DNA of 64,000 nt, taken from a virus. Taxonomy: Duplodnaviria > Caudoviricetes. Below, piece after piece: positions 31,441 through 50,492 of the stretch; position 1 is the stretch's first letter, and every line of letters begins with the position of its first letter. Below the pieces are notes generated by a model that worked only from the letters and a program-made list of their open reading frames with translations, made no database searches and was not told the origin of the DNA. The stretch lies in the IMG/VR virus record IMGVR_UViG_3300032254_000001, positions 280,484 through 344,483 of that record. The stretch is one strand, 5' to 3'. The position numbers were made by a program, and so were the translations under genes.

Positions 31441-31758
31441 ATGCAAACTAATCAAATTGAAGCTGAAGTCGCGAATGTTAGAAAGAAATTCGATCACGAC
31501 TCTGCAAAACAAGTCCTAAAAGAAAAATACGAAGCCAAAATGCTATTTGCAGCTTTTGGAGGTATGTGGAAAGCCGGTCCGGAATTACTATCCCTTTTAA
31601 CTGCCGTAGGCACAACACCCGAAATAGTGCTAGTAGACGAATACGGAAATCCTTGTAAAGTTACATCGCTTGAGCTATACAACATGGTAGCTACACGCTG
31701 GCAAGAACAAATGAATGCCTGGTACGCAGAGTTTACAGAGATGCAATCAAAACGATGA
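31441..31758 (+). CDS. Hypothetical protein, first gene of the operon
   Basis: ORF with SD; ATGA overlap to 31755. Confidence 0.65.
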   Translation: MQTNQIEAEVANVRKKFDHDSAKQVLKEKYEAKMLFAAFGGMWKAGPELLSLLTAVGTTPEIVLVDEYGNPCKVTSLELYNMVATRWQEQMNAWYAEFTEMQSKR

Positions 31759-32570
31759 GTAGAGGCGTTTTAATATTTGCGTTTAACAATGCTAAACTTA
31801 ACTATTTTAAGCAAGCTGATTGGTTAGCTGATAGGGTAGAAAAGTTTTTAGGACTGCCTACTACTATAGTCACAGACGAAAAGAGTTCGGGTGATACTAG
31901 ACACGATGTGATATTCAAGCGAGCAATCAATATGGGTACGCGCAATCTTGATATATCTAGAGAAGACTTTACTGACGACTGGTTCAACGCTAATAGGTTC
32001 CAAGCGTACGACATATCACCGTACGATGAGACTATAGTAATAGACAGTGACTACATTGTAAACAGTGATCAACTTAACTTATTATTTGACTCTCCGCATG
32101 ATTTCCTGTGCCATAGACATGTTTACGATGTAGCTAATAAAGATAGTCTAGAAGCGTACAAAACATTTGGTGATACAAAGTTTCCGCATTATTGGGCAAC
32201 GGTATTATTTTTCCGTGAATCAGATATAGCAGAATCAATGTTTAACTTAATTGAAATGGTGAAACAGAACTACGTGTTCTACAGTAAATTATATAAGTTT
32301 CCATCATCGCCGTTCCGTAATGATCATGCGGTTAGTATAGCGTTATCAATTGCATACGGTCACAGGATTAATTCAATACCAACCATTCCGTGGAAGTTAC
32401 CTACAGCGGTAACTGATATTGATGTAAAGCAATTAAGCGAAACAGAGTTTGAATTACACTTTACTAAATGGTCTAGGAATAAGCAGAAAGAAATGAAATC
32501 AGTTATTAACGGTCACGATTTTCACTGCTTAAATAAAATAGCAATGGAGAAAATGATAGATGCAAAGTAA
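31755..32570 (+). CDS. Putative GT-A (GT8-like) glycosyltransferase
   Basis: RGVLIFAF...YDISPYDETIVIDSDY (DxD)...FRNDHAVSIA. Confidence 0.65.
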   Translation: MSRGVLIFAFNNAKLNYFKQADWLADRVEKFLGLPTTIVTDEKSSGDTRHDVIFKRAINMGTRNLDISREDFTDDWFNANRFQAYDISPYDETIVIDSDYIVNSDQLNLLFDSPHDFLCHRHVYDVANKDSLEAYKTFGDTKFPHYWATVLFFRESDIAESMFNLIEMVKQNYVFYSKLYKFPSSPFRNDHAVSIALSIAYGHRINSIPTIPWKLPTAVTDIDVKQLSETEFELHFTKWSRNKQKEMKSVINGHDFHCLNKIAMEKMIDAK

Positions 32571-33390
32571 AGAAGACCGCGGCTATTTGATTTGGGCCAT
32601 CGGTGATGACTATATTGATTGTGCCATTGCATGTGCAAGAAGTATTAAACTACATACACCAAGTGCTAAAATATGTTTATTAACAGATGAAGCAGGATCA
32701 CTTTCAGTCTACGGACACGATGGTAATCATTGGGTATTCGAACATATTGTAAAGTTTCCGTTTCCAGTTAACTACGATAATATATTAGCTAATGACTGGC
32801 AAGTGTTTTTCGCTACACCGTTTAAAGAAACAATAAAAATTGAAGCCGACATGATTGTGCCACATAGTATCGAACACTGGTGGACAATGTTAAGACATAA
32901 GGATGTTGTGTTAACAACAGGCGCTCGTAACTACATGAACGAAAAAACCGACGAGCGATTCTATAGACAAATATTTGACGAAAACAATTTACCTGATGTC
33001 TACAATGCAATTACATACTGGCACGAAAGTGATTTAGCTAATGATTTTGGATCGCTTGTGAAGTACCTGTTTAACAGATGGGATATTGCACAGGCTAGAC
33101 TTAAACTAGGACTAACTGATCCTGGCACCACAGATGTAGTGTATGCAGTAGCCGCAGTGATACTTGGGGTTGAGAACGTTACATTACCAAATACAAGTTA
33201 CCCTACGTTAATACACATGAAGGGTAGAATAAATTGGTTAGTTGGAGAAGATTGGACTAAAGAAATGGTATGGGAACTAGATGAGAGTAACATACGCATC
33301 AATACAATCGACCAGCAATATCCATTTCATTATTATACAAAGGAATTTAGTAAGGTACTAAATGAACATTATGACAATATTTTTGGGTGA
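32560..33390 (+). CDS. Putative GT-A (GT8-like) glycosyltransferase, paralogue of 31755
   Basis: RGYLIWA...YIDCAIACARSIK...TPFKETIKIEADM (ExD variant). Confidence 0.6.
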   Translation: MQSKEDRGYLIWAIGDDYIDCAIACARSIKLHTPSAKICLLTDEAGSLSVYGHDGNHWVFEHIVKFPFPVNYDNILANDWQVFFATPFKETIKIEADMIVPHSIEHWWTMLRHKDVVLTTGARNYMNEKTDERFYRQIFDENNLPDVYNAITYWHESDLANDFGSLVKYLFNRWDIAQARLKLGLTDPGTTDVVYAVAAVILGVENVTLPNTSYPTLIHMKGRINWLVGEDWTKEMVWELDESNIRINTIDQQYPFHYYTKEFSKVLNEHYDNIFG

Positions 33391-33716
33391 AGCAAATGAC
33401 TAATTTCTTTGAATCATTGGAATTACTTGAAGAACAACCTAAGCAAAAGATCGAGTTTAGGTTGTACTACGATCCAAAGACAAACGAACCGTTGTTTTAC
33501 ACAATGGAAGATGAGCCCGGGGATTATATTTCAATTACCCCGGAAGAGTTTTCAGAAATGCGACTTGACGTATTTGTTAAGGATGGCAAAATTGAAAAGA
33601 AACGTGCAATTTCAATAGGTAAACTGGTACCTTCTGATGAAGGTTACCGAACAACAAAAAACGATATATCAATTATCGGCAACGAACAGTACTGGGATTT
33701 AAAAACATATGAGTAA
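33387..33716 (+). CDS. Hypothetical protein
   Basis: GTG start overlapping upstream stop; EFRLYYD motif. Confidence 0.6.
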   Translation: MKQMTNFFESLELLEEQPKQKIEFRLYYDPKTNEPLFYTMEDEPGDYISITPEEFSEMRLDVFVKDGKIEKKRAISIGKLVPSDEGYRTTKNDISIIGNEQYWDLKTYE

Positions 33717-34635
33717 TCAAATAGACATAGCAGATTTAGATGTAATTTTTCTTAGTTACGATGAACCACAAAAAGAAGAGTTCTGGGTTAAGATTAAAAA
33801 CATGGTGCCGTGGGCCGTCAGGGTAGACGGTGTTAAAGGTAGCGATGCGGCACACAAAGCCGCAGCTGATGCAAGTGAAACAGATCGCTTTGTATTAATA
33901 GATGGCGACAACATGCCGGACTTAGACTTCTTTAATCTAACACTTGACCTTAAAGACAACGAGTACGAAAATGCAGTTTTCCGTTGGAGAGCACGTAACC
34001 ACATCAATGGATTAATGTACGGCAACGGTGGATTAAGTTGTTGGACAAAAGAGTTTGTGTACAATATGAAAACACACGAAGCAAGTGAGGGCAATGACGA
34101 CACGGATGTAGAGTTTTGTTTTGATCCAATGTATTGGGCTATGCATGACTGCTACAGTACAACATATCCAAATGGTAGCAAGTTCCATGCATGGCGCGCT
34201 GGGTTCAGAGAAGGTGTAAAGATGTGCTTAGACCGAGGCAAGAAGCCTACTATCGGAGAGTTCAAAGATAGTGTACACAAGCGCAACATGGATAATTTAA
34301 GTATCTGGCACAACATAGGCAGCGATGCAGAATTTGGATGCTGGGCAATACTTGGTGCGCGTATGGGTACGCAAATGACAATGTTAACTGACTGGGATTA
34401 TAAAGAAGTACAGAGCTTTGATAGCTTAGAAAAGATTTATAACACAATGGTACATGATGTTCCGTCGCAAGTGCAAAAAGTTGGACAAGAACTTAAAACT
34501 CAACTAGACTTGCCAATTATAACTCCTAACGCAGACCACAGCACATTCTTTAAACATCACTATCATGCTAGCTGGCACAACAAAGGTATAATGGTACGTG
34601 AGATAGATGTTATACGTAACCTAGAGGGCTGGTAG
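33709..34635 (+). CDS. Putative GT-A (GT2-like) glycosyltransferase
   Basis: DVIFLSYDEP...RVDGVKGSDAAHKAAA...FVLIDGDN (DxD)...YGNGG...AWRAGFREGVKM. Confidence 0.65.
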   Translation: MSNQIDIADLDVIFLSYDEPQKEEFWVKIKNMVPWAVRVDGVKGSDAAHKAAADASETDRFVLIDGDNMPDLDFFNLTLDLKDNEYENAVFRWRARNHINGLMYGNGGLSCWTKEFVYNMKTHEASEGNDDTDVEFCFDPMYWAMHDCYSTTYPNGSKFHAWRAGFREGVKMCLDRGKKPTIGEFKDSVHKRNMDNLSIWHNIGSDAEFGCWAILGARMGTQMTMLTDWDYKEVQSFDSLEKIYNTMVHDVPSQVQKVGQELKTQLDLPIITPNADHSTFFKHHYHASWHNKGIMVREIDVIRNLEGW

Positions 34636-35672
34636 TGCAAATAGACATAGAAGAATTTGTTTGCAACGATGAGCTTTCAGATGTTGGTCGCTTATCTGCG
34701 ATCATAATAGAAACTATGCGACACCACGGCACTATTACATTGCACACAGAAGAATTAATCTCCGGAGAAGAGATTGGCTTGTTTGATTTGCTAGATAGTC
34801 TGTGTAGTTACTACAACTGGGATCCAACACAAATACAACTATCGTATCAAAATTATAGAGAATTAGAAAACGAAACTCGCTATACAGTTAAAAGGATTGT
34901 CCATTCAGGTGAGCAGATATGGCCAGGTACACTCAACGATACTAAGAATGTACTTCAGTTACGTGATTGGAACAAAGAAGAAATGTTCGGTATGTTCACA
35001 GGCCGTATGAATTTTACAAGACTATATGCACACGATAAACTAAGAAAGTTCAGGTACAAAGACCAGTGCTTGTCAAGTATGAACCAAGCTCCTAGCGACT
35101 TTAGAGTTAATCAACGTGTGCTATTGCAGTACTTAAAAGAGTCTGGCACAAGCTGGGACGAAATAAAAGATATCGAACCGTATAGTGATATTAGCGAAGT
35201 GATAACTCCGCCGATAACATTAGCCCGTCAGCAGTTCATAGGTTGGGAAGATATATACGAAAAGATTGGAATTGAGATTGTATGCGAAACTGCTGAGTCA
35301 CAGAACATTGTAGCATTTACAGAAAAATTAATACGCCCAATGGCGTATAAGCGACCATTTTTATTAATTGGCAGTCCAGGACTAGCACACGAGTTAGCTG
35401 ATGAGAATTCGTTTATAATGCAGAAACTTAAAACATTGCCTATCCCTGTAGGACCAATACGTTTCTTTCAAAATGTAATACCGCTTAATTACGATAACCT
35501 AGCAGGGGCTGAGCGAGTTGATGCTGTATTTGAAATACTCGACGGTCTAATAGAATCAGGTATGATTGATACGATACTTGATGATTGCAAAGACGACATA
35601 GAGTGGAACCACAAGATTGCATACGATTGGTTAAAGAATGGTTACAACCCTGAGGGATTATTAAATGAGTAA
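34635..35672 (+). CDS. TEK-motif (GT10-like) putative glycosyltransferase
   Basis: IVCETAES...FTEKLIRPMAYKRPFLLIG. Confidence 0.45.
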   Translation: MQIDIEEFVCNDELSDVGRLSAIIIETMRHHGTITLHTEELISGEEIGLFDLLDSLCSYYNWDPTQIQLSYQNYRELENETRYTVKRIVHSGEQIWPGTLNDTKNVLQLRDWNKEEMFGMFTGRMNFTRLYAHDKLRKFRYKDQCLSSMNQAPSDFRVNQRVLLQYLKESGTSWDEIKDIEPYSDISEVITPPITLARQQFIGWEDIYEKIGIEIVCETAESQNIVAFTEKLIRPMAYKRPFLLIGSPGLAHELADENSFIMQKLKTLPIPVGPIRFFQNVIPLNYDNLAGAERVDAVFEILDGLIESGMIDTILDDCKDDIEWNHKIAYDWLKNGYNPEGLLNE

Positions 35673-37065
35673 AGGCGACGAAGTAGATAAAGATTTTAAA
35701 AGTAAGTTTCTCTCAGACGCAGAAATAATGAAGGAAAAACTAGATGAAGTTAGCCCTTCGATGTGTCTTGCTAAGTGGAAACAAGTGTCATTGCATTTAC
35801 CAACAGGGTTAAACAACTCATGTTACCATCCGCCATTGCATCAAATTAGTATAGAAGATATTAAAAACAATCCTTCTGGCTTACACAACACAGCACAGAA
35901 AGCCATTGCACGTCAGCAAATGATCGACGGTGTTAGACCAGACGAGTGTAGCTATTGCTGGGCAATGGAAGATAACGGAGAACTGAGTGATCGTCACTAT
36001 CGCAGTGGCGAACCGTGGGCCGCAAAGGACCTAAGTGCTATTGTTGCGAACCCAGACGCAAACGTCACTCCTTCATATGTTGAAGTGAACTTCAACCATG
36101 CGTGTAACTTAGCATGTTCGTATTGTTCCCCTCAGTTCTCCTCTTCATGGTTGCAGGAGGTTAAGAAGTACGGCGCATACCCTACAACACAACCTCATAA
36201 CGATCCTGCATATTTTACAGGCACTAGACGTCCTATTCCAAACAGAGAAGAGAATCCATACGTAGATGCATTTTGGGAATGGTGGCCTGAGCTGTATAAA
36301 GACTTACAACATTTTAGAATGACTGGCGGTGAACCGCTTATGGATAAGAATACGTACAGGGTATTTGACTATGTACTTGAGCATCCAAAAAGTGATTTGC
36401 ATTTAAACGTTACAAGTAACTTGTCTGTAGATCAAAAGCTTTGGGACAAGTACATGGGCTATGTTAAGCAATTAACAACAGGCAAGATAGAACACTTCAT
36501 GCAGTACGTATCGGTAGACACATGGGGCAGACAGGCTGAGTACATACGACACGGATTAGATTTTAATCTATTAATAGAACGTGTAGAACAGTTTTTAACA
36601 GAGATACCTAGCTATAGTAGTGTCACATTTATTATCACAATGAACAATCTGTCTATACATAATTTAAGACAGCTAATGATGTGTATATTGCATTTAAGAA
36701 GGAAGTACAGCAAAGACTTCCAGCGTGTATGGTTCGATACTCCTGTACTACGCACACCTGAATGGCAAAGTATGCAAGTACTTCCAGATCATTTTGTTAG
36801 CAAGTTAGAAGATGCAAAAGCTTACATGGAAGATAATATAGAAACAGAAGAGTCTCGCTTCCATGGCTTTAAGGATTACGAAATACAACGTATGAGCAGA
36901 GACATTGCGTGGATGAAGCAAGGTACAAACAACGTGGAGCAAAAGAAAGCAGACTTCTATCGCTTCTTTAGCGAAGCAGATAAACGCCATGACACTAACT
37001 TCTTAGAAGTATTCCCAGAGCTTAAAGCTTTTTGGGAGGAATGTCAGTACTATGCTAAACGATAA
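35665..37065 (+). CDS. N-terminal twitch radical SAM protein 1
   Basis: CLAKW..SCYHP..CSYCW ahead of CNLACSYC (CxxxCxxC); TGGEP. Confidence 0.9.
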   Translation: MSKGDEVDKDFKSKFLSDAEIMKEKLDEVSPSMCLAKWKQVSLHLPTGLNNSCYHPPLHQISIEDIKNNPSGLHNTAQKAIARQQMIDGVRPDECSYCWAMEDNGELSDRHYRSGEPWAAKDLSAIVANPDANVTPSYVEVNFNHACNLACSYCSPQFSSSWLQEVKKYGAYPTTQPHNDPAYFTGTRRPIPNREENPYVDAFWEWWPELYKDLQHFRMTGGEPLMDKNTYRVFDYVLEHPKSDLHLNVTSNLSVDQKLWDKYMGYVKQLTTGKIEHFMQYVSVDTWGRQAEYIRHGLDFNLLIERVEQFLTEIPSYSSVTFIITMNNLSIHNLRQLMMCILHLRRKYSKDFQRVWFDTPVLRTPEWQSMQVLPDHFVSKLEDAKAYMEDNIETEESRFHGFKDYEIQRMSRDIAWMKQGTNNVEQKKADFYRFFSEADKRHDTNFLEVFPELKAFWEECQYYAKR

Positions 37066-38191
37066 AAACAAACACGCATTCTGTCCAGCGCATTGGGATG
37101 ATATTCATTATGCTCCGTCACAAGGTTACTTGTACGGTTGCTGTAAAGCTACGCCTATTCCAATTGAAGACGTAAACGAATTAGATCAGCGTAAACAAAA
37201 TGCATTAGACGGTGTTAGGAACCCAAGCTGTAATTACTGCTGGAAGACAGAGGATGCAGGCAATGAAAGCCTACGTCATAACAAGCTAAGGGAGTGGGAC
37301 GGCACATCAAATTGTCGTAAATTAACGCTAGTACTTGGTAACCTTTGTAATCTACAATGCACTTACTGTAATGAAAAGTACAGTTCAAAGTGGCAAACAG
37401 ATAAGAAAAGATTCGGTGAAATTAAAATGCAGTACGACACTGACATTTATTATGCTGGCAAGACTTGTGTTAACAAAGAGTCGCAAGTGTACATAGACTT
37501 CTACAATAAAACAAAGCCAAAGTCTTTAACAGTGTCAGGCGGTGAGCCACTTATAGGCAACGTGTTTAAAGACATCTTAACAGAGTGCGACTTGTCACAG
37601 CTACAAGACATAAGTGTTTCTACTAACCTAAACTATACAAAGCGTGATACAATTGACAAGCTACTAGAGTTCAAAGATAGCCATAATATAACACTTAATG
37701 CCAGTTTGGACACTGTAGATAGCAATGTGCAAGAGTACTTACGTTTTGGTTTCAATATGGATAGATTTAAAAGTAATCTCTATGATCTATTAGATAACAC
37801 ACCAGTTCGGATAAATTTCATTACACTTGTTACGGCTCAATCGGTAAAAGGTATTTACAATCTGTGCAAATTCGTGTATCATTTAAAGACAGTATATCCT
37901 AATAGGGTTAACTGGTACGCATCAACCTGCGTTACACCAGCGACACATACATTCGATATACTAACCGAAACAGAAAGAGCACAAGCTTTGGATGAAGCAA
38001 GGAAAGTACAGCAAGAGATACAGGACCAGTTAGAGTTAATTAATATTAACAAAGTAATTGCAACATTAGAGAATGCAAAGTACAATGAAGAACTTCGCAA
38101 CGACCAATCAAATTTCTTTAAGCAGTTTAATGAAAGGCAAGACATACAAACACCGCAGGAACTAGGATTTTTAATAGATGCTAACAGATAA
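37052..38191 (+). CDS. N-terminal twitch radical SAM protein 2
   Basis: FCPAHW..GCCK..CNYCW; CNLQCTYC; SGGEP. Confidence 0.9.
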   Translation: MLNDKNKHAFCPAHWDDIHYAPSQGYLYGCCKATPIPIEDVNELDQRKQNALDGVRNPSCNYCWKTEDAGNESLRHNKLREWDGTSNCRKLTLVLGNLCNLQCTYCNEKYSSKWQTDKKRFGEIKMQYDTDIYYAGKTCVNKESQVYIDFYNKTKPKSLTVSGGEPLIGNVFKDILTECDLSQLQDISVSTNLNYTKRDTIDKLLEFKDSHNITLNASLDTVDSNVQEYLRFGFNMDRFKSNLYDLLDNTPVRINFITLVTAQSVKGIYNLCKFVYHLKTVYPNRVNWYASTCVTPATHTFDILTETERAQALDEARKVQQEIQDQLELININKVIATLENAKYNEELRNDQSNFFKQFNERQDIQTPQELGFLIDANR

Positions 38192-39290
38192 GAATAAGCA
38201 CACATTTTGTCCTGCTAAATGGCAGGAGGTTGTTTTTCATCCGTCACGGAATCTTGTTTTTGCTTGCTGTAAATCAGAAAACTATGATGGCGGAACACTT
38301 GACGAACAAAGAGATAATTTACTAAATGGCGTTAAGGATCCAAGCTGTAATTACTGCTGGGACGCAGAAGAAAAAGGCGGTCGTAGTTTAAGGCACGAGA
38401 AGCTTGAAAACTGGGACGGCACAATAGAATTAAAACTACTTGATATCTTTATAAACAACGTATGTAATCTACAATGTACATACTGTTCTCCGGCTGCAAG
38501 TAGTAAGTGGTCAACTGACATTGAAAAGAATGGTCAGTACCCTATGTATCCATTGTACAATACAGTCGCAGATAAAATTACTAACGAACAGCTGGTAGAA
38601 TATATTAACGATTATAGTCCAGCAAACAAGATTACACTAATTGGCGGCGAGTTACTTATTAACCCGCAAACAAACTTAATCCTTAATAATATTCCAGCTG
38701 GTATTCGTATTGAAGTCCCATCAAATATGTGCTATGACAAGTACGATGTATTAGACAAGCTGTCAGCACTAACAGAAACAAATGATGTTTGGGTTAAGCC
38801 GAGTATTGATACCATAAATAATAATGTTAAGCAGTACATACGACGCGGCTTCGACCCAGAGCTAGCGCAAACAAATATTCAATACATCTTAGAACATACT
38901 AACATAAATTTATGTTTCATGACATTAATATCACCGTACACTGTATGGGATCTAGTAGAAACGCAACGATACATTCAAGACTTAGAAGCACGTTACCCTA
39001 ATAGAGTTATATGGAAGCTTTCGTATTTGCACTCTCCAGAGAACCAGTCTTTTGTTATTCTAACTGATAAAGAAAGAGCTCAAGCAATTGAAGTAACTAA
39101 AGCAGCACAGTTAGAATCTACAGAGAAAAATAAAAAGCTCGTAGCAGTTGTATTAAATGCTTTAAGCTGTTCAGAATTTAATCCGGCACTACGCCAAGAA
39201 CAACAAACTTTCTTTAAGGAATTTAATAGAAGACACAATGTAATAACTCCTAATGAGTTACAATTTATAATAGAGGAAACACCATGTTAG
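38178..39290 (+). CDS. N-terminal twitch radical SAM protein 3
   Basis: FCPAKW..ACCK..CNYCW; CNLQCTYC; IGGEL. Confidence 0.9.
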   Translation: MLTDKNKHTFCPAKWQEVVFHPSRNLVFACCKSENYDGGTLDEQRDNLLNGVKDPSCNYCWDAEEKGGRSLRHEKLENWDGTIELKLLDIFINNVCNLQCTYCSPAASSKWSTDIEKNGQYPMYPLYNTVADKITNEQLVEYINDYSPANKITLIGGELLINPQTNLILNNIPAGIRIEVPSNMCYDKYDVLDKLSALTETNDVWVKPSIDTINNNVKQYIRRGFDPELAQTNIQYILEHTNINLCFMTLISPYTVWDLVETQRYIQDLEARYPNRVIWKLSYLHSPENQSFVILTDKERAQAIEVTKAAQLESTEKNKKLVAVVLNALSCSEFNPALRQEQQTFFKEFNRRHNVITPNELQFIIEETPC

Positions 39291-39553
39291 ACGATAGAGA
39301 AGATACACCAGGCGACTTAGTACACGACGGCAACGAAGCGCAATGGAGACAGAAGTTTTGTGATGAAACAGGCCATAGTATGGAATGCGTTGGCGAAACC
39401 GTAACTGGCATGGCCGAGATAGCCGCTGCCGCTGCTAATGCAGCAGATGCAGAATTGTACTTAGAGGATATCATTAACCAGATGGGCGTGGAACTGTTTG
39501 AAAAGCATCTACGTAACATCCTAGCCGCTAAGGATTGTGAGTGCAATAAGTGA
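39284..39553 (+). CDS. Small acidic Cys-containing hypothetical protein
   Basis: 89 aa, GAGG SD, overlaps both neighbours; EIAAAAANAA run; ends DCECNK. Confidence 0.6.
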   Translation: MLDDREDTPGDLVHDGNEAQWRQKFCDETGHSMECVGETVTGMAEIAAAAANAADAELYLEDIINQMGVELFEKHLRNILAAKDCECNK

Positions 39554-41924: not shown

Positions 41925-42192
41925 ACGAGTTACTCCTGGTGTCACAGTACGCGAAGTTGATGTATCGTTTGTTATGCCGCCTGAACCGACGGTTAGTTTT
42001 GACGTAATAGACGACAGAACAATTGAAATTCGGAACTGGCCGTGGTGGTATTCTACTAGAGTTGCTAACAAGGTAAATGATTGGATGGATGCACACACTG
42101 AAAACGGGCGAAGCTTAATTGTTGACGACCGCATTATTTTTGACAAACCTGAGGAACTAACAATGTTTGTTTTAGCATGGAGTGGTAAATGA
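41914..42192 (+). CDS. Small protein of the W..[TC].G..F...F.L family (see 53827-56193)
   Basis: C-terminal DWMDAHTENGR...IIFDKPEELTMFVLAW. Confidence 0.55.
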   Translation: MGFKRVTPGVTVREVDVSFVMPPEPTVSFDVIDDRTIEIRNWPWWYSTRVANKVNDWMDAHTENGRSLIVDDRIIFDKPEELTMFVLAWSGK

Positions 42193-43484: not shown

Positions 43485-44661
43485 ATCATTCTGTGTACTT
43501 CCGTGGATTAGTATAGAAGCAAGTCCAATTGGAACCGTGCGTCCTTGTTGTCTTGCTGACGATGAGATCCTTAAAGACAACGGTGAGAAGTACAACCTAA
43601 ACACTGACGGCATGCTAGGCATACAAGACAGCAAGTACATGGAGAAATTGCGCGAAGAATTCTTAGCAGGCAAACGTCCAGAGACTTGTCGTAAGTGTTG
43701 GGCAGAAGAAGATGTTGGCCGTACTAGTAAGCGAATGAATACTATTAAACGTCTAGGGTCTATGTTAAGTGATATTACCGAATGGGATAACAAGTCTATA
43801 GACTTACGTTTTGTAGATTTAAAGCTTGGTAACATATGTAATCTAAAATGCAGGATCTGCGGTAGTTGGAGCTCTAGTAAGTTTGCAGGTGAAGAGATAA
43901 AGTTCGCAGTAGACGGTACCTTCCATAGAGAAATGAATAAGAAAGGTGCGTGGCCACGCACAGCTGACAAGTTTTGGGATGAGCTTAACTGTGCATCTGG
44001 AGACATACGTTACTTGGAATTCACTGGCGGTGAACCGTTTATGATACGTGAGCATTTTGAGTTCCTAGAGGTTTTGGTACATAACGGACTTGCAAATCAA
44101 ATTGAAATCCATTATAATACCAATGGTACACAATGGCCTGCGAAATACGTGCATCTTTGGAAAGAGTTCAAACATGTAGAAATTGCGTTCAGTATAGATA
44201 ACACAGGCGCACGTTTTGAGTACGAGCGTACCAATGCTAAGTGGGACGAAGTAAACGAAAATATCCAAAAGTTCATTGGCTTACGAGCTGAAAGCAAGAA
44301 CATTTCGTTGCAGCTATGCACAACGATTAACTTGTACAATGTTCTTTATTTGCCTGAAGTATTTCATTGGGAACACTTTAAAGACTTTGATTTTGTATTT
44401 TGGAATATGTTACATGATGCACCTGAAAACTGCATTAAGTCTTTACCACGTGGTGCCAAGGATGTAATTGCTGTTCAGTTATTAGGAATAGCAGACGTAG
44501 ATGCAAAGACACGTGAAGAATTTAAAAACGTTGTTAACTTTATGCGGTCGGGCGAAGGCGTTGACCCGTATGAAAACATTGAACGATTAGACAGCAGGCG
44601 TGAAGTGTCATTAAAGGATACACACCCAGAACTATATGAGTTATTATTCCATGACAAGTGA
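43468..44661 (+). CDS. N-terminal twitch radical SAM protein 6
   Basis: FCVLPW..PCCL..TCRKC; GNICNLKCRIC; TGGEP. Confidence 0.9.
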   Translation: MELPNKSFCVLPWISIEASPIGTVRPCCLADDEILKDNGEKYNLNTDGMLGIQDSKYMEKLREEFLAGKRPETCRKCWAEEDVGRTSKRMNTIKRLGSMLSDITEWDNKSIDLRFVDLKLGNICNLKCRICGSWSSSKFAGEEIKFAVDGTFHREMNKKGAWPRTADKFWDELNCASGDIRYLEFTGGEPFMIREHFEFLEVLVHNGLANQIEIHYNTNGTQWPAKYVHLWKEFKHVEIAFSIDNTGARFEYERTNAKWDEVNENIQKFIGLRAESKNISLQLCTTINLYNVLYLPEVFHWEHFKDFDFVFWNMLHDAPENCIKSLPRGAKDVIAVQLLGIADVDAKTREEFKNVVNFMRSGEGVDPYENIERLDSRREVSLKDTHPELYELLFHDK

Positions 44662-44857
44662 CGAAGAAGCAGTAGCAGCAATACACAAAAGTCTTGAAGA
44701 ACGACTAAAAGAAAAAGAACAAGCCGAGTGCGACTTTTTCAACAAAGCCTCAGATGAGGTAAAAGAACAGTACTTCAAACGTTGGCGCGAAGTTAACGAC
44801 CCAGGCACAGAACCGAGATTTATAAGAGAATATGCAGAAGCCAGACGAAAAGCCTGA
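44651..44857 (+). CDS. Small charged hypothetical protein (68 aa)
   Basis: MTSDEEAVAAIHKS...; overlaps both flanking rSAM genes. Confidence 0.5.
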   Translation: MTSDEEAVAAIHKSLEERLKEKEQAECDFFNKASDEVKEQYFKRWREVNDPGTEPRFIREYAEARRKA

Positions 44858-46160
44858 TACGCTTTGCCTAGCACCGTGGCTACACACGTACCTTTCTCCA
44901 CAAACAGAAAGGCGTATGTGTTGCGCGAGTCGTGAACCAGCACAATCATTTGAGCAGTACATAGACACCAGTAAAGGCACTAGCACATACAATCCGATGA
45001 CGCTTGATGAGCACATGAACAGTGATCACATGAAGTCTGTACGCAGGCGCATGATGGCAGGTGAAACATTAAGTGAATGTGATGTGTGCAATAACAAACT
45101 ATTGAACACAGATGTATACAGAAGTTACTTCTGGAACATGTTTCAGCATCACTACGATGAGATATGGGATAAGACAGAGGAAGACGGAACCACAACATGT
45201 AAGCCAATAAGTTGGGATTACAGATTCAGTAACCTGTGCAATTTTAAATGTCGTATGTGTGGCGACATGTTATCGTCAAGTTGGGAAAGTGAACAACGTT
45301 CTAACGATATGATAGACTGGGGCAATCCGCAGAATAACTGGATGCAAAAAGATGTCCGTAAACAAATAAGCAAATTCCAAGACACTGAAATAGAAAAAGA
45401 ATTTAGCGATGCAGTAGAAGATCATCGCATAGAAGAAATCTACTGGGTTGGCGGCGAGCCACTAATGTTCGAACAGCACTGGAAATACATGAAACGTATT
45501 GTAGAGCTAGGCGATGGGCATAAAGTGTATGCACGTTACAACACAAACCTGTCTCAAATAGTGTATAAAGGCATACACTTGTACACAGATATCTTACCGC
45601 ATGTACGTGATTGGCAGATATGTGCAAGCATAGACGGCACAGGAGCAATAGGTGAATACATTAGAACTGGATTAAAATGGCCAGTATTCTTAGCAAATTA
45701 TAAGGAAGGACTTGCAATTTCGCGCCATCCTAGGCAGATGAGACTGGACTTTACACTGACATTACCGGGCCTTTTTGAGCTGAAAAACATGTTTGACCTT
45801 AGTAAGGAGTTAAATACTACGTTACTTGCTAAAGTTACATTTGCATTCGGTTCGAACGTTTTAATGTCGCCTTTAGCATTGCCAAAAAGTATATTACATA
45901 GAATAGTAAATGACTTTTTAGTATATGCGAATGAGGAGGGATATGACCAAAATCAGCAGCCATTGATTGACGTTATGACCAATATTTTAAGCAGGCCTAC
46001 TTTTGAAGAAGAATGGCCAAGCGACTACAAGCAAGGAGCGATTGACGGCAAACGCCGCATAGAGAAAGTTGAAAGCATTCGACTTGCTTCGTTGACGCTG
46101 GAAGAGATTTTACTAACAGAGGATGCAGAAGCATATGAGTGGTACCGAGCAATACCTTGA
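44832..46160 (+). CDS. N-terminal twitch radical SAM protein 7
   Basis: LCLAPW..MCCA..ECDVC; DYRFSNLCNFKCRMC; VGGEP. Confidence 0.9.
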   Translation: MQKPDEKPDTLCLAPWLHTYLSPQTERRMCCASREPAQSFEQYIDTSKGTSTYNPMTLDEHMNSDHMKSVRRRMMAGETLSECDVCNNKLLNTDVYRSYFWNMFQHHYDEIWDKTEEDGTTTCKPISWDYRFSNLCNFKCRMCGDMLSSSWESEQRSNDMIDWGNPQNNWMQKDVRKQISKFQDTEIEKEFSDAVEDHRIEEIYWVGGEPLMFEQHWKYMKRIVELGDGHKVYARYNTNLSQIVYKGIHLYTDILPHVRDWQICASIDGTGAIGEYIRTGLKWPVFLANYKEGLAISRHPRQMRLDFTLTLPGLFELKNMFDLSKELNTTLLAKVTFAFGSNVLMSPLALPKSILHRIVNDFLVYANEEGYDQNQQPLIDVMTNILSRPTFEEEWPSDYKQGAIDGKRRIEKVESIRLASLTLEEILLTEDAEAYEWYRAIP

Positions 46161-47223
46161 CACGATTGTGATGTCATTGAGAAACAGTTCTACTGGGGAT
46201 ATACTTCCAGTATATATCAATGTATTTGATGATTCATTGAGTGAGAAATGGTACAACGCCCTTAATGAAATCATTAAGAATAAGTTGCACCTGGAAAAGA
46301 ATTATCAATTTTTAGGGATTCCTGGTTACGAACGAAACGGAACGTACATCACTGACCAAATAAACAAATCGATCGACGCAATTAATAAAGCTGATATTGG
46401 ATATCAGATAGACGACTTCTTCTCTCTTGAAAATACTATGCTCGACATAGATGGAGAAGTAGGAGAGGGTCTGCCTGGCCGCGAGCTAGTACATGACAAG
46501 TTCAATAAGTTACATCGTTACTTCGAAGACTTACAAGGTACTAGCGGTAACATGTCACCTTACTATAATAAAGCTGATGCTGATACACGCTGGCACATAC
46601 GCCAGTTGAACTTACTGTGCCACGAATACGAGTCGTGGGCATTAAGCTATCGCAAAGAAGCACACGCTCCTGAATGGATGCGCCCATCGCAATTAATGTG
46701 TTATTTAAAAGCACCGCGCTTCACACTTACAGAAGATGACTTTGAAAGCTTTGGCATTGAAACAATTGCACGACCACTAGGCGGTGTCTTTGTTGGTGTT
46801 AACAAAGCAGTAGGCAAGCATCATTGGGAAGTGTTCCAAGATGAAGATGGTAGTAGAATAGATGAGTTAACAACGTCTGCAATGCGTTCACAAACAGAAG
46901 CAGCAGGCGACTTTGATATCGAGTGGGCAAACGATCCAGGTGCATATCAATTTATGAAAGATAGAATAACTAAGTTCAGAATTTGGTTAACGGAAAATGG
47001 ATTCGACCCTGAAGACAAAGCATTAACAATAGGCCACCCGCAGGTAGCACAGGTAGATCTAAAGCGAACATTTGGCACAGAAGATTACACAGTAATTTGG
47101 GATCAATTGTTTGATTACTTAGATGTTGTTAGTATAGAAACTAAGGATGCCTACGTAGAATATAAATACCACTGGAGCGATTCAGATTACAAGGAGCAAC
47201 AAATCAAATGTTTAAATGGTTAA
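46135..47223 (+). CDS. Hypothetical protein (~362 aa)
   Basis: Long ORF in operon; start uncertain (46123 or 46135); LNLLCHEYES motif; no family recognised. Confidence 0.6.
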   Translation: MSGTEQYLDTIVMSLRNSSTGDILPVYINVFDDSLSEKWYNALNEIIKNKLHLEKNYQFLGIPGYERNGTYITDQINKSIDAINKADIGYQIDDFFSLENTMLDIDGEVGEGLPGRELVHDKFNKLHRYFEDLQGTSGNMSPYYNKADADTRWHIRQLNLLCHEYESWALSYRKEAHAPEWMRPSQLMCYLKAPRFTLTEDDFESFGIETIARPLGGVFVGVNKAVGKHHWEVFQDEDGSRIDELTTSAMRSQTEAAGDFDIEWANDPGAYQFMKDRITKFRIWLTENGFDPEDKALTIGHPQVAQVDLKRTFGTEDYTVIWDQLFDYLDVVSIETKDAYVEYKYHWSDSDYKEQQIKCLNG

Positions 47224-47312
47224 GGAAAAAATGGTTAGATTGGAAGTTACACCGCCGTTACAAAAAGAAACTTAAAGAATTAAAAAAGCGCGATCCGTTC
47301 ATATACAAATAA
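47208..47312 (+). CDS. 34-aa basic peptide
   Basis: MFKWLRKKWLDWKLHRRYKKKLKELKKRDPFIYK*; AAGGAG upstream; fills the gap before the carbamoyltransferase. Confidence 0.7.
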   Translation: MFKWLRKKWLDWKLHRRYKKKLKELKKRDPFIYK

Positions 47313-47324
47313 AAAGGTAGTACA

Positions 47325-48848
47325 ATGACAACACGAAATATACTAGGGTTCAGCGCCGGGTTCCATGACGCAGGCATGTCAGTAGTAGATGGCAACAACG
47401 GTAAGATATTGTTTGCTAGTCATAGCGAACGTTTTAGCAAACGCAAACACGATCCGGATCTGTGTAGATCGATAATAAACGAAGCACTAAGTCACGGTAC
47501 AGTTGCTAAAGTTGCGTACTACGAGAATCATTGGTTAAAGAAAGCTAGGCAGTTATTTGCAGGCCAGCCAACAGACGATTGGCATTGGACACTGCGAAGC
47601 GAAATAAGTCATCACTTTCCGCATCCTGATCACCAAGTACTGCTAGACAACGTAAAGTTAAAAGGTTACGGACACCACAAGTCACATGCCGCAGCAGGCT
47701 TCCAGACTAGTCCATTTGATCAAGCTACCGTTGTCGTTATTGATGCCATTGGTGAGTTTGATACTATTACTATATGGAATGCATACTACGATCATGCTGG
47801 CAATGCGAAGTACAAATTAAAGCATCGCCAACTATATCCACATAGCATTGGATTATTCTATAGCGCAATTACACACAATGTTGGCCTACGTCCACTAGAC
47901 GAAGAGTACATTTTAATGGGCATGGCTGCATACGGCGATGCTAGTAAAACAGTAGATACTATTAAAGATAGATTAATTGAGTCTACTAACCCACCTAAGT
48001 TTAAAGAGAACTTGCACATTGGATATAATGAAAGCTTAACCAACGAGGATGTTACTGACTTTGATGTAGCAGCAGGCGCACAAGAACTAGTAGAAGAAAT
48101 GATTGAAAATGTTATGAAGAAGTCTAAGCACTATGATTATTCTAATAACCTAGTGTTCATGGGCGGTGTTGCTTTAAACTGTTCTGCTAACAGACACTTA
48201 GGCAAGTACTACAATGACATTTGGATTATGCCTAACCCAGGCGATGCAGGTAGCTCATTAGGTGCTGCGGCATTAGCATACGGTAAGAAGCTGCAATGGA
48301 ATGATGCTTACTTAGGCTATAATATAGAAGGTGAATACCCTGTACAAGAATTAGTTAATTCACTTAAGAAAGCTAAGATTGCAGGTGTTGCAAATGGCAA
48401 GGCTGAGTTCGGTCCACGCGCATTAGGTAATCGTTCATTGCTAGCTGACCCACGCGGTAAGGCTATTAAGGATATAGTAAACGATATAAAGCGTAGACAA
48501 AAGTTCCGTCCGTTCGCACCAGTGGTACTTGCAGAACATGCAAGTACTTACTTTGATATGCCAAATGGATTTGAACGAAGCGACTACATGCAAGTCACCG
48601 CACATTGTAAGAAGCCAGAAGAGTTCCCTGCTATAATACACAAAGACGGAACAAGCAGAGTGCAAACAGTACCTGCAAATGGTTCAGGTATTAGAAGACT
48701 TCTTGAAGCATGGTACAAGGAAACTGGTTGTCCAATGTTACTTAACACATCATTAAATATCAGAGGCGAGCCAATGGTAAACGATGAAAGCGATGCAAAA
48801 CGCTTTGAAGAAGAGTACGGTATAAAAGTACTTACATCTGTGTTATAA
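47325..48848 (+). CDS. Carbamoyltransferase (NodU/CmcH/TobZ family)
   Basis: FHDAG, SERFSKRKHD, HHKSHAA, GGVALNC, GDAGSSLGAA, EFGPRALGNRS, FRPFAP, DGTSRVQTV, LNTSLN. Confidence 0.93.
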   Translation: MTTRNILGFSAGFHDAGMSVVDGNNGKILFASHSERFSKRKHDPDLCRSIINEALSHGTVAKVAYYENHWLKKARQLFAGQPTDDWHWTLRSEISHHFPHPDHQVLLDNVKLKGYGHHKSHAAAGFQTSPFDQATVVVIDAIGEFDTITIWNAYYDHAGNAKYKLKHRQLYPHSIGLFYSAITHNVGLRPLDEEYILMGMAAYGDASKTVDTIKDRLIESTNPPKFKENLHIGYNESLTNEDVTDFDVAAGAQELVEEMIENVMKKSKHYDYSNNLVFMGGVALNCSANRHLGKYYNDIWIMPNPGDAGSSLGAAALAYGKKLQWNDAYLGYNIEGEYPVQELVNSLKKAKIAGVANGKAEFGPRALGNRSLLADPRGKAIKDIVNDIKRRQKFRPFAPVVLAEHASTYFDMPNGFERSDYMQVTAHCKKPEEFPAIIHKDGTSRVQTVPANGSGIRRLLEAWYKETGCPMLLNTSLNIRGEPMVNDESDAKRFEEEYGIKVLTSVL

Positions 48849-48854
48849 TTAACT

Positions 48855-50492
48855 ATGTTCGATGTATTCTACATATCACTAAAGCCCGCTGATTTTCCCT
48901 GGGCAATAAAAGTTAAAGACAGAGAAGAGGCACGTGAACTATCGCGTACTCGTTTCTGCTGGATACTTGATGGTCATAACGATTACACAAAATTTGATTT
49001 AATGTGGGAACCATCACGTTTTGAAGCAAATCAAGTACACGTTTGGCCAAGTCAATGGCAAGATCACGGCGGCACTGAATTTATTCCAAAAGACTGGGAT
49101 GGTTCCGTAAACTACCAATCACAGAGCGTACTCCGCGACACCCATCCATACATTGTGTACTTAGAACACGGCAATGACGATCAGTTTTATAATTCTGATG
49201 TCGCTATGTACTCACGAGCTAGGTTCATTAATGATTACTTAGGAACATTGAAGCGCGTAGTAAGTAAACACAAAGACGAAGACTTCATATGGGTAACGAG
49301 TTCTGTGTGTGATTACCGTACCTTTCATTTTTCTTGGCATCCGTCGGAATGGCAGAATGATATGTTGCATGTCTTTGCAAGCGACGAACAAAAGTTTGGT
49401 GATACATTTTACATTAATGTTAAAAACTTTTTAGCGCAATGTGATAACTTAGAACTACTTGAATGGTACGATACTATATGCTTCCATGACCATTCAATAC
49501 CAAGGCATCCAATGCCAGAGATACTACACGATTGTGATTCACAAGTAGATGCAATTAAAGAACAGGTATTTGGTGCTATCAAAGGATCATCGCCGACGGC
49601 TCCGTTAGTCCTCTATACAACACGAGCAGTTGAACTAGAGCAAGAGCCTGTGCCTACTATAAACTTATGGCGCCCGAAAACAAGAACAATTACTCCGCTA
49701 ACAGCATCCGGAAACACATGTATCGTTCCTAAGGATGCACTTATAGCAATTCAACACGAAGCGTACGACTATCCGCACATTAATAAAGATTACATGGACA
49801 GGTTCCTAGACACTCCATTGGACATTGTGTTTATGAGCAACGGAGAAGAATGTGCCGAAGCTAACTACAAACATCTATGTGATGTAGTCCCACCCGGGCA
49901 CATCGTACATCATGTTCAAGGTGTTGAAGGTAGGATAGCATCAGCTAGAGCAGCCGCAGCAATTTCTGGCACTGACTGGTTCTTTTCAATTAATGCTAAA
50001 CTTAAAGTTGACAAACAGTTCAACTGGAACTGGCAACCAGACCGCCTGCAACAGGCAAAGCATTATATCTTCCATGCATACAATCCGTATACGAAAGATA
50101 CATATGGACACATGGCAGCAATCGCCTGGAACAAGAAACTAGTTAATACTGATACTGAATGGGGCTTAGACTTTACAATGAGTCACAAGCACGAGGTTGT
50201 TCCTGTCCTGTCAGGTGAAGCGGTATACGGTCCTAAAGAGTGGGATCTATGGCGTACAGCATTTCGCGAAGTAATCAAGTTAATGCAAGCTACTGATGCC
50301 GAGTCTAAAACGCGCCTACAGCATTGGGTAACCGCTGATGATGAATGGACTGCTATTGGTGCAGCTGATGCAAGGCACTTCTGCAATAACATAGCAATGG
50401 GCGATCAAGAGAAGCTTAAACTAAGCTTTGACTGGGAATGGCTAGGCCAGTACTTTGTTATAAAGTACGCAGAGTGGTCTAAGCCCGTATAA
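48855..50492 (+). CDS. Multi-module GT-A-like protein; C-terminal module paralogous to 33709
   Basis: DIVFMSNGEE...VQGVEGRIASARAAA...LWRTAFREVIKL; two shorter related modules upstream. Confidence 0.55.
   Translation: MFDVFYISLKPADFPWAIKVKDREEARELSRTRFCWILDGHNDYTKFDLMWEPSRFEANQVHVWPSQWQDHGGTEFIPKDWDGSVNYQSQSVLRDTHPYIVYLEHGNDDQFYNSDVAMYSRARFINDYLGTLKRVVSKHKDEDFIWVTSSVCDYRTFHFSWHPSEWQNDMLHVFASDEQKFGDTFYINVKNFLAQCDNLELLEWYDTICFHDHSIPRHPMPEILHDCDSQVDAIKEQVFGAIKGSSPTAPLVLYTTRAVELEQEPVPTINLWRPKTRTITPLTASGNTCIVPKDALIAIQHEAYDYPHINKDYMDRFLDTPLDIVFMSNGEECAEANYKHLCDVVPPGHIVHHVQGVEGRIASARAAAAISGTDWFFSINAKLKVDKQFNWNWQPDRLQQAKHYIFHAYNPYTKDTYGHMAAIAWNKKLVNTDTEWGLDFTMSHKHEVVPVLSGEAVYGPKEWDLWRTAFREVIKLMQATDAESKTRLQHWVTADDEWTAIGAADARHFCNNIAMGDQEKLKLSFDWEWLGQYFVIKYAEWSKPV

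What the first reader, a model, noticed from the sequence alone, without database searches (positions are those of the whole stretch)
31441..50492. 19-kb translationally coupled operon: glycosyltransferases + seven radical SAM enzymes + carbamoyltransferase
Seen: 21 co-oriented genes, nearly all overlapping (largest gaps 12 and 6 nt), directly after the fibre genes. They include two GT8-like, two GT2-like and two GT10-like ORFs, seven twitch rSAMs and a NodU-type carbamoyltransferase. Known: twitch rSAMs such as BtrN oxidise sugar hydroxyls, and NodU/TobZ enzymes O-carbamoylate sugars. Inference: a phage-encoded pathway that builds and tailors a complex glycan on virion proteins, DNA or the host surface. 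I know of no characterised pathway with this gene set.
Basis: partly seen in the sequence, partly recalled or inferred. Interest (0 to 1): 0.88.

Follow-up and report, generated by a model that had tools for sequence, protein, structure and literature searches.

The report
Phage radical-SAM glycan-tailoring operon
An uncultured 344-kb T4-like jumbo phage carries a 19-kb, separately promoted operon of sugar transferases, seven unusual radical SAM enzymes and a carbamoyltransferase; the same cassette is conserved in at least 80 other viral contigs, and none of its reactions has been characterised.

Summary
The gene train is real: 21 co-oriented ORFs, of which 20 have support; only g16 has no homologue. 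Seven are radical SAM enzymes with the auxiliary Fe-S "twitch" domain at the N-terminus (NCBIfam NF033640). One gene is a full NodU/TobZ/NovN-type O-carbamoyltransferase.

The glycosyltransferase labels hold only in part:
- g02 and g03 are paralogous GT-A proteins with GT8/GT77-like folds.
- g05 has a GT-A N-domain with an invariant DGD motif.
- g21 carries a g05-like domain that lacks this motif.
- The "GT10-like" pair (g06, g11) is unproven.
- g18 has a cyclophilin-like barrel and is not a glycosyltransferase.

New here:
- The cassette is syntenic in 80 IMG/VR contigs. Its core is five ancient radical SAM orthogroups plus g01, g03, g05, g18 and g20.
- A conserved terminator and sigma-70-like promoter precede g01, so it is a transcription unit separate from the fibre genes.
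- All 21 products are soluble, with no lipid-carrier or export parts.

Best reading (about 0.5): a cytoplasmic pathway that builds and radically tailors a carbamoylated glycan on a soluble acceptor. The acceptor is unknown.

This scan noted the same cassette type earlier in other genomes. The literature mentions it only in passing.

The parts
31354..31377 (+). Intrinsic terminator (10-bp stem, TTCG loop, T-run) that ends the fibre-gene transcript
   Evidence: Best terminator-like site in the region, sequence. A hairpin plus T-tail occurs before g01 in 27 of 45 distinct related upstream regions, against 0-2 before internal genes.
31396..31424 (+). Sigma-70-like promoter TTTACA-17-TATACT with TG extension, 16 nt before the g01 ATG
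   Evidence: Top-ranked promoter match (10/12) in the region. A match of 9/12 or better in the same place occurs in 28 of 45 related loci, and 22 also have the hairpin; no internal gene has both. It is a consensus match only; its activity is inferred.
31441..31758 (+). g01, conserved 105-aa soluble protein of unknown function (core gene)
   Evidence: Homologues lie at the head of the cassette in 54-55 loci at about 50% identity. The protein is conserved along its whole length, unlike a leader-core precursor peptide. No Pfam, PHROG or NCBIfam match.
31755..32570 (+). g02, GT-A-type transferase, paralogue of g03, with invariant D97-x-D99
   Evidence: hhalign against the g03 family gives 98.9%, E 2e-17. 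DAD is invariant. Weak match to phrog_1903.
32560..33390 (+). g03, GT-A-type transferase with a GT8/GT77-like fold (core gene); E95-x-D97 and H219 are invariant
   Evidence: The Atlas model (pTM 0.90) matches clusters carrying PF03407, PF01501 or PF11051 at TM 0.63-0.71. No direct Pfam or PDB sequence hit.
33387..33716 (+). g04, conserved 109-aa soluble protein of unknown function
   Evidence: Present in 67 loci at about 38-61% identity. No family match.
33709..34635 (+). g05, GT-A-fold N-domain (residues 4-129) with invariant D65-G66-D67, followed by a helical C-domain (core gene, about 68% identical across loci)
   Evidence: AlphaFold2 model with pLDDT 68. The Foldseek top hit is PBCV-1 A64R (probability 0.97, E 0.013). 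All 50 VIA-align rows are GT-A or nucleotidyltransferase folds, Z 5.3-6.7.
34635..35672 (+). g06, member of the variable-copy ET...F-TEK family (possible GT10-like transferase, unproven)
   Evidence: Aligns with the g11 family. Homologues are variably present between g05 and g07 in related loci.
35665..37065 (+). g07, N-twitch radical SAM enzyme, core orthogroup 1
   Evidence: NF033640 at E 6e-96. Monophyletic orthogroup with one copy per locus.
37052..38191 (+). g08, accessory N-twitch radical SAM enzyme
   Evidence: NF033640 at E 2e-44, just below the family cut-off. Orthologues found only in L010 and L017.
38178..39290 (+). g09, accessory N-twitch radical SAM enzyme, tandem paralogue of g08 (37% identical)
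39284..39553 (+). g10, 89-aa acidic protein with 4 Cys, accessory
   Evidence: Homologue found only in L041 (43% identity).
39550..40575 (+). g11, ET...F-TEK family protein (possible GT10-like transferase, unproven)
   Evidence: The family has 11,625 clusters at 50% identity and no Pfam or PDB hit. hhalign against six bacterial GT10 proteins pairs the motifs in register (P 0.002, probability 12%).
40572..41924 (+). g12, N-twitch radical SAM enzyme, core orthogroup 2 (36% identical to g07)
   Evidence: NF033640 at E 7e-92. The clade has 100/99 support.
41914..42192 (+). g13, 92-aa protein, weakly conserved
   Evidence: Weak hits in the same position in L009 and L010 (25-27% identity, E 2e-4 and 3e-3).
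42189..43484 (+). g14, N-twitch radical SAM enzyme, core orthogroup 3, the most conserved gene of the cassette
   Evidence: NF033640 at E 4e-120. Pfam SPASM at residues 33-96 precedes Radical_SAM at 142-299. It is 63-80% identical in all 80 loci.
43468..44661 (+). g15, N-twitch radical SAM enzyme, core orthogroup 4
   Evidence: NF033640 at E 7e-98. Tree.
44636..44857 (+). g16, 73-aa ORF with no homologue; possibly not a gene
   Evidence: No tblastn hit even at relaxed settings. In L010 and L017, g15 abuts g17 directly.
44832..46160 (+). g17, N-twitch radical SAM enzyme, core orthogroup 5
   Evidence: NF033640 at E 9e-85. The clade has 100/100 support.
46123..47223 (+). g18, cyclophilin-like beta-barrel with an inserted helical bundle; unknown function, not a glycosyltransferase (core gene)
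   Evidence: AlphaFold2 model with pLDDT 82, pTM 0.84. VIA-align Z 8-9 to cyclophilins over 140-150 residues. Uncharacterised cellular AFDB clusters at TM 0.73, E 1e-17. No Foldseek PDB hit.
47208..47312 (+). g19, 34-aa very basic peptide
   Evidence: Conserved between g18 and g20 in L010 (85%), L017 and L041.
47325..48848 (+). g20, NodU/CmcH/TobZ-family O-carbamoyltransferase (core gene)
   Evidence: PF02543 at E 8e-34 and PF16861 at E 2e-49. NovN at E 7e-44, GdmN, and TobZ at about 1e-30; the HHxxHA, GGVALN and FRPFAP blocks align.
48855..50492 (+). g21, two N-terminal W-rich repeats plus a g05-like domain (residues 312-505) that lacks the DxD motif
   Evidence: hhalign against the g05 family gives 98.3%, E 2e-14; AKLKV aligns with DGDNMP. 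Present in 17 loci.
50608..50641 (.). Hairpin ACGCCCTT...AAGGGCGT between the convergent g21 and the minus-strand gene; likely end of the operon
   Evidence: Read directly from the sequence. The consensus scan did not list it.

Best explanation
The operon is one transcription unit of soluble cytoplasmic enzymes that assembles a short glycan and then tailors it heavily.

Proposed steps:
- The GT-A transferases g02, g03 and g05 add sugars from nucleotide sugars to a soluble acceptor. The variable g06/g11-type proteins may also take part.
- The five conserved N-twitch radical SAM enzymes each carry out a different hydrogen-abstraction-initiated step on that glycan or its precursors, such as oxidation, epimerisation, deoxygenation or C-C/C-methyl chemistry. 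This phage has two extra paralogues. The N-terminal four-Cys cluster is the proposed electron conduit.
- g20 makes carbamoyl-AMP from carbamoyl phosphate and ATP and O-carbamoylates a hydroxyl.

Because no lipid-carrier, flippase or export protein is present, the acceptor is probably a protein made in the infected cell. A virion or fibre protein is the leading candidate.

What is shown: enzyme families and folds, gene order, co-inheritance and solubility.

What is inferred: sugar as the radical SAM substrate, the order of steps, the timing of expression and the acceptor.
For: - Domain calls.
- GT-A folds with conserved acidic motifs.
- Nearest solved relatives of g20 are NovN, GdmN and TobZ.
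- The cassette is syntenic at 50-70% identity in 80 viral contigs. All 43 loci with full flanks carry the five radical SAM orthologues, and 27 carry all ten core genes.
- The five orthogroups are each monophyletic and their internal branching agrees.
- The terminator-promoter pair is found only before g01. Nineteen of 20 gene junctions overlap.
- No hydrophobic segment in any product.
- Variable accessory genes are inserted between fixed core genes, as in glycan loci.
- The genome also encodes a GalE-type UDP-hexose 4-epimerase, a second SDR and a DegT-like gene, and an A-type Fe-S carrier.
Against: - No radical SAM enzyme of this family has a known reaction. The nearest solved sequence relatives are peptide maturases (TvgB, SkfB), followed by viperin and MoaA.
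- No Pfam glycosyltransferase family matches anywhere in the genome, even at E 10. The fold scores for g05 are modest (Z below 7), and nucleotidyltransferases score the same.
- The cassette holds no sugar-nucleotide synthesis gene; the nearest lie 185 kb away.
- A sigma-70-type promoter rather than a late box does not fit simple co-expression with virion proteins.
- The functions of g01, g04, g18 and g19 are unknown.
Confidence: 0.5

Rival explanations
1. Protein or peptide maturation. The radical SAM enzymes act on amino-acid side chains (cross-links, epimerisation, methylation) of a phage structural protein or of the small cassette proteins g01, g04, g10, g13 or g19. The GT-A enzymes then glycosylate that protein, as SunS-type transferases do for glycocins.
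For: - The best solved sequence relatives of the family profile are RiPP maturases: TvgB (8vpo, E 2e-8), SkfB and YydG.
- SunS appears among the fold hits of g05.
- The cassette holds several small conserved proteins.
- It lies next to the fibre genes.
Against: - g01 and g04 are conserved along their whole length, with no leader/variable-core pattern.
- No RiPP recognition element, protease or exporter was detected.
- The PDB matches cover only the generic radical SAM core.
Confidence: 0.2
2. Host-surface remodelling. The enzymes alter cytoplasmic precursors of host lipopolysaccharide, capsule or S-layer glycan to block superinfection, as proposed for glycosyltransferases in pelagimyophage hypervariable regions.
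For: - The literature proposes this for GT8-rich, radical-SAM-containing regions next to tail fibres (PMC7029224).
- A sigma-70-type promoter fits early expression.
- The accessory gene content is variable.
Against: - All 21 proteins are soluble. There is no polyprenyl-phosphate transferase, flippase, polymerase or ligase.
- The core is strongly conserved rather than hypervariable.
Confidence: 0.12
3. DNA hypermodification. The transferases and radical SAM enzymes decorate phage DNA bases with a tailored, carbamoylated sugar or side chain to evade restriction.
For: - The enzymes are soluble and have a sigma-70-type promoter, like T4 early DNA-modifying genes.
- By recall, radical SAM enzymes occur in known thymidine hypermodification clusters.
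- A ThyA-family gene converges on the cassette.
Against: - The ThyA keeps the dUMP-specific PFNIASY Asn and scores above the thymidylate synthase equivalog cut-off.
- No hydroxymethylase, base kinase or DpdA was detected in the cassette.
- ThyA adjacency holds only in the three closest loci.
Confidence: 0.08
4. Free small molecule. The cassette makes a diffusible, carbamoylated pseudo-oligosaccharide or nucleoside-like metabolite (in the style of aminoglycosides or polyoxins) that acts on the host or on competing phages.
For: - The enzyme mix resembles antibiotic pathways: a twitch radical SAM enzyme as in BtrN, and carbamoyltransferases as in TobZ and NovN (BtrN by recall).
- No acceptor protein is evident.
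Against: - No scaffold-forming enzyme (cyclase, aminotransferase, NDP-sugar synthase) and no exporter was detected in the cassette.
- GT-A transferases are unusual for aminoglycoside pathways (recall).
Confidence: 0.1

Closest known systems
NCBIfam NF033640 (N_Twi_rSAM, twitch domain-containing radical SAM protein)
   Same: All seven enzymes match along the full length. Five score above the 170-bit cut-off. The domain order is the same: Cys-rich twitch domain first, then the CxxxCxxC core.
   Different: The family is a catalogue entry with no assigned reaction. g08 and g09 score just below the cut-off (about 150 bits). Here the family occurs as a fixed set of five orthogroups inside a conserved phage cassette.
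Twitch/SPASM radical SAM enzymes such as BtrN, anSME, MoaA, SkfB and TvgB
   Same: Radical SAM core plus one auxiliary cluster bound by four Cys. Pfam SPASM matches g14 and g15. There are weak core matches to TvgB, SkfB, viperin, MoaA, BlsE and anSME.
   Different: The auxiliary domain is N-terminal rather than C-terminal. Sequence similarity is limited to the generic core, so no substrate can be transferred from these enzymes.
O-carbamoyltransferases TobZ, NovN and GdmN (NodU/CmcH family)
   Same: g20 has both the Kae1-like and YrdC-like domains, with the conserved blocks aligned.
   Different: It scores far below the NodU equivalog cut-off (131 against 1000 bits). It is about 70-180 residues shorter than the solved enzymes, and its acceptor is unknown.
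Viral GT-A glycosyltransferases that glycosylate virion proteins (PBCV-1 A64R; STIV A197)
   Same: They are the best Foldseek (A64R) and VIA-align (A197) matches of the g05 N-domain. All are soluble GT-A folds with a DxD-type motif.
   Different: Scores are modest (E 0.013; Z 6.7) and identity is 12-15%. g05 has an added helical C-domain with no match.
Hypervariable region next to tail fibres in pelagimyophages, and T4-like environmental genomes with up to 12 radical SAM genes
   Same: Large T4-like aquatic phages with glycosyltransferases and radical SAM cassettes beside the fibre genes, and a phage Fe-S carrier (PMC7029224, PMC5332604).
   Different: Those papers only mention the genes. Here the cassette is a defined, conserved, separately promoted unit. 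No cultured phage in the collection has a close homologue; the best is 23% identity in Vibrio phage K566.

Membership tests
NF033640 N-terminal-twitch radical SAM | Full-length match above the curated cut-off (170 bits) | tested here: met
   g07, g12, g14, g15 and g17 score 285-402 bits. g08 and g09 score 152-153 bits, below the cut-off but over the full length.
NF033640 N-terminal-twitch radical SAM | CxxxCxxC SAM-cluster motif preceded by a four-Cys auxiliary domain | tested here: met
   C34, C53, C95 and C98, then C147, C151 and C154, are invariant in all seven. Pfam SPASM at residues 33-96 precedes Radical_SAM at 142-299 in g14.
Sugar-acting twitch radical SAM enzymes (BtrN-like) | Specific sequence or structural kinship to BtrN, or a demonstrated sugar substrate | tested here: not met
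   BtrN is not among the PDB profile hits at E up to 1; the best are TvgB, SkfB, viperin and MoaA. The substrate cannot be tested with these tools.
NodU/CmcH/TobZ carbamoyltransferase | Kae1-like N-domain plus YrdC-like C-domain above the Pfam cut-offs | tested here: met
   PF02543 scores 118 bits (cut-off 24) and PF16861 scores 168 bits (cut-off 27).
Glycosyltransferase family 8 (g02, g03) | Match to the family profile PF01501 | tested here: not met
   No match in the genome even at E 10, and none in 23 family members.
Glycosyltransferase family 8 (g02, g03) | GT-A fold with a DxD-type motif and a C-terminal His | tested here: met
   Atlas structural neighbours carry PF03407, PF01501 or PF11051 at TM 0.63-0.71. 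D97-x-D99 is invariant in g02. E95-x-D97 and H219 are invariant in g03.
Glycosyltransferase family 2 (g05, g21) | Match to PF00535, or a GT-A fold with DxD | tested here: inconclusive
   PF00535 finds nothing. The g05 N-domain has a GT-A/nucleotidyltransferase fold at Z 5.3-6.7 (A64R probability 0.97) and an invariant DGD. g21 is homologous but lacks the motif.
Glycosyltransferase family 10 (g06, g11) | Match to PF00852, or significant profile similarity to GT10 proteins | tested here: inconclusive
   PF00852 finds nothing at E 10. hhalign against six bacterial GT10 proteins pairs the ET..F-TEK and EN..YVTEK motifs in register, but with P 0.002 and probability 12%.
Lipid-carrier (Wzx/Wzy or ABC) envelope glycan pathway | Polyprenyl-phosphate transferase, flippase, polymerase or other membrane proteins | tested here: not met
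   The highest 19-residue Kyte-Doolittle mean is 1.53, and no such Pfam family matches.
RiPP gene cluster | Precursor peptide with a conserved leader and variable core, plus a recognition element, protease or exporter | tested here: not met
   g01 and g04 are conserved throughout. No RRE, protease or transporter family was detected.

The most novel reading that the evidence does not exclude
The N-terminal-twitch radical SAM enzymes are a new class of carbohydrate-tailoring radical enzymes. With the phage's own GT-A transferases and a carbamoyltransferase, they would build a previously unknown, heavily modified glycan on tail-fibre or other virion proteins of a widespread lineage of uncultured jumbo phages. 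That would amount to a viral protein-glycosylation system with five sequential radical steps.
Probability: 0.25. Interest if true: 0.9.

Novelty: new variant of a known kind. Interest (0 to 1): 0.72.

Why it matters
Radical SAM enzymes with an N-terminal twitch domain number in the thousands in viral metagenomes, and none has a known reaction. This work turns a scatter of radical SAM genes near tail fibres into a testable unit. It defines a fixed ten-gene core, its own promoter and terminator, five orthogroups that should each have one reaction, and soluble enzymes that can be expressed together.

If the product is a virion glycan, phage protein glycosylation would extend well beyond the mycobacteriophage and chlorovirus cases and would add new radical sugar chemistry. 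If the target is DNA, the host envelope or a metabolite, the pathway would be equally uncharacterised.

Two further large families have no annotation and become candidates for new enzyme activities: the g06/g11 family (11,625 clusters at 50% identity) and the g18 cyclophilin-like family.

Tried and rejected
- Nucleotide search of the phage collection found nothing.
- A protein search there found only 23-26% identical radical SAM enzymes, in Vibrio phages K566 and K567, Ralstonia phage RsoM2USA and one marine virus. K566 carries four distant N-twitch radical SAM genes and no other cassette gene.
- PDB profile searches for the g03, g05, g18 and g06/g11 families were empty or noise.
- Pfam scans of every member of the g03, g06/g11 and g21 alignments, and of ten long fusion proteins of the g06/g11 family, found nothing.
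- A Foldseek PDB search for g18 gave no hit. Atlas fold searches added nothing.
- Bacterial homologues of g14 (37-40% identity, in Bacteroidia and Elusimicrobia MAGs) stand alone among unrelated genes and give no context clue.
- The family alignment of the seven paralogues was too diverged for a genome-collection scan.
- No RNA runs hold the region; only two DNA runs from microbial mat metagenomes do. Transcript ends could therefore not be tested.
- The moraphage paper (PMC12619734) does not mention radical SAM genes, so I did not equate it with this lineage.
- Literature searches for N-terminal twitch or NF033640 returned nothing.
- The idea that the adjacent ThyA-family gene is a hydroxymethylase was rejected.
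- I ran no complex prediction, because I make no binding claim.

Full report
**Setting**

The window is the last 64 kb of a 344,483-bp IMG/VR virus record with direct terminal repeats. The only runs that hold it are microbial mat metagenomes. Upstream of the finding lie a baseplate hub, a baseplate wedge protein (phrog_10646, E 4e-278), a 4373-aa ORF and a tail-fibre-like protein. The phage is therefore a T4-like jumbo phage, and the finding does follow the fibre module.

**Observation**

Twenty-one + strand ORFs (g01-g21) fill 31441-50492.
- g19 (34 aa, very basic) is conserved at the same place in L010, L017 and L041.
- g13 and g10 have weak or single homologues.
- g16 has none, and close relatives join g15 directly to g17.

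Twenty genes are therefore supported.

**Radical SAM enzymes**

g07, g08, g09, g12, g14, g15 and g17 match Pfam Radical_SAM. All match NCBIfam NF033640 (N_Twi_rSAM) over the full length, and five score above its cut-off. The Pfam SPASM match in g14 and g15 lies before the radical SAM core. Four upstream Cys and the CxxxCxxC motif are invariant in all seven. The genome has two more members: one at 191 kb, and one that runs across the record ends (window 63204-63998).

A maximum-likelihood tree was built from 78 such proteins, taken from this window and 12 related loci. g07, g12, g14, g15 and g17 form five well-supported orthogroups with one copy per locus and matching internal branching. g08 and g09 form a separate accessory clade shared only with L010 and L017.

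The nearest solved sequences to the family profile are TvgB (8vpo), SkfB, viperin, MoaA, YydG, BlsE and anSME. All match through the generic core, so the substrate cannot be read from homology.

**Carbamoyltransferase**

g20 has both Carbam_trans domains and aligns with NovN (E 7e-44), GdmN and TobZ, including the HHxxHA and FRPFAP blocks.

**Glycosyltransferase claims**

- **g02 and g03.** They are paralogues (hhalign 98.9%). The Atlas model of g03 (pTM 0.90) has structural neighbours carrying PF03407, PF01501 or PF11051 at TM 0.63-0.71. g02 keeps D-x-D; g03 keeps E-x-D and a C-terminal His.
- **g05.** It was modelled from 23 orthologues (pLDDT 68). It has a GT-A/nucleotidyltransferase N-domain: PBCV-1 A64R at probability 0.97, and Z 5.3-6.7 against 50 chains that all belong to that superfamily. 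Its DGD motif is invariant.
- **g21.** It carries a g05-like domain without that motif.
- **g06 and g11.** They belong to a huge uncharacterised family (11,625 clusters at 50% identity). The family has no Pfam or PDB match, even in long fusion proteins. Its ET...F-TEK motif aligns in register with the EN...YVTEK motif of six bacterial GT10 proteins, but the score is weak (P 0.013, improving to 0.002 with a deeper profile).
- **Pfam GT2, GT8 and GT10 profiles.** They find nothing in the genome even at E 10.
- **g18.** Its model (pLDDT 82) is a cyclophilin-like barrel with a helical insert. Its only clear relatives are uncharacterised cellular proteins.

**Conservation**

A scan of IMG/VR with g14 found 134 relatives, and 80 loci from about 70 metagenome ids were kept. 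They share the order g01-g02-g03-g04-g05-(g06/g11 types)-g07-(g11)-g12-g14-g15-g17-g18-g20-(g21) at 50-70% identity. Among the 43 loci with full flanks:
- all carry the five radical SAM orthologues;
- 39 carry at least nine of the ten core genes;
- 27 carry all ten.

The three fibre-side genes upstream are syntenic too, so the cassette is a long-standing feature of one uncultured phage lineage. No cultured phage has a close homologue.

**Transcription signals**

The 111-nt spacer before g01 holds the best terminator-like hairpin in the region and the best sigma-70-like promoter (TTTACA-17-TATACT). The same pair recurs before g01 in related loci. Of 45 distinct upstream regions, 28 have a promoter match, 27 have a perfect hairpin with a T-tail, and 22 have both. 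No internal gene has both. The TATAAATA late box was not found in any of the 40 upstream regions searched. The cassette is thus a transcription unit of its own, probably read by unmodified host polymerase. This is inferred from consensus matches, not shown.

**Other constraints**

- None of the 21 proteins has a hydrophobic segment.
- g01 and g04 are conserved along their whole length and do not look like precursor peptides.
- The convergent downstream gene is a true thymidylate synthase.
- Elsewhere the genome encodes a GalE-type epimerase, a second SDR, a DegT-like gene and an A-type Fe-S carrier.

**Interpretation**

The most economical reading is a cytoplasmic glycan assembly and tailoring pathway ending in O-carbamoylation, acting on a soluble acceptor. 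A phage protein is the leading candidate. The rivals remain open: peptide maturation, host-envelope precursors, DNA, or a free metabolite.

The literature mentions such genes only in passing (PMC7029224, PMC5332604). Searches for the family name found no paper. This scan had noted the same cassette type in other genomes. One follow-up there reached the same family assignment, also with no known reaction.

Noticed in passing
window 34635-35672 and 39550-40575; genome 159.7-160.3 kb, 198.1-198.5 kb and 282.2-282.5 kb: The g06/g11 family has five copies in this genome. It comprises 11,625 clusters at 50% identity in public data, with no Pfam or PDB match. It has a conserved ET...F-TEK-x2-KPI-x3-RPF motif.
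   Followed up: partly
window 63204-63998 (continues at genome 3-584): An eighth N-twitch radical SAM gene runs off the end of the record and resumes at its start. A ninth lies at genome 191.3-192.3 kb on the minus strand.
   Followed up: partly
upstream of g01 in L042, L048, L052, L067 and others: In many related loci the -10 box ends only 5-10 nt before the ATG of g01. The mRNA would then be leaderless or nearly so. The 3' arm of the terminator overlaps the -35 element.
   Followed up: partly
window 14979-28100: A single 4373-aa ORF follows the baseplate wedge gene. Its only Pfam signal is an FG-GAP repeat. It is presumably a giant fibre or VrlC-like structural protein.
   Followed up: no
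window 50996-52057 (minus strand): A thymidylate synthase of 353 aa carries two insertions relative to the family models, but keeps the PCH and PFNIASY motifs.
   Followed up: partly
genome 95.5-98.1 kb (L099 2036-4560, minus strand): A small sugar-nucleotide cluster: a GalE-type UDP-hexose 4-epimerase (E 5e-76 to 4twr), a 212-aa DegT-like ORF and a second SDR epimerase/dehydratase. It lies near the DpdA-type cluster noted by another reader.
   Followed up: partly
genome 255301-255600 (minus strand): An A-type Fe-S carrier (PF01521, E 1e-14) is present. No IscU or flavodoxin was found. This fits the published link between phage Fe-S carriers and many radical SAM genes.
   Followed up: partly
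L092 (Vibrio phage K566, record 161.5-168.3 kb): This cultured 255-kb vibriophage has four distant N-twitch radical SAM genes in one small cluster, one of them annotated only as hypothetical. It could serve as a tractable model for the enzyme family.
   Followed up: partly
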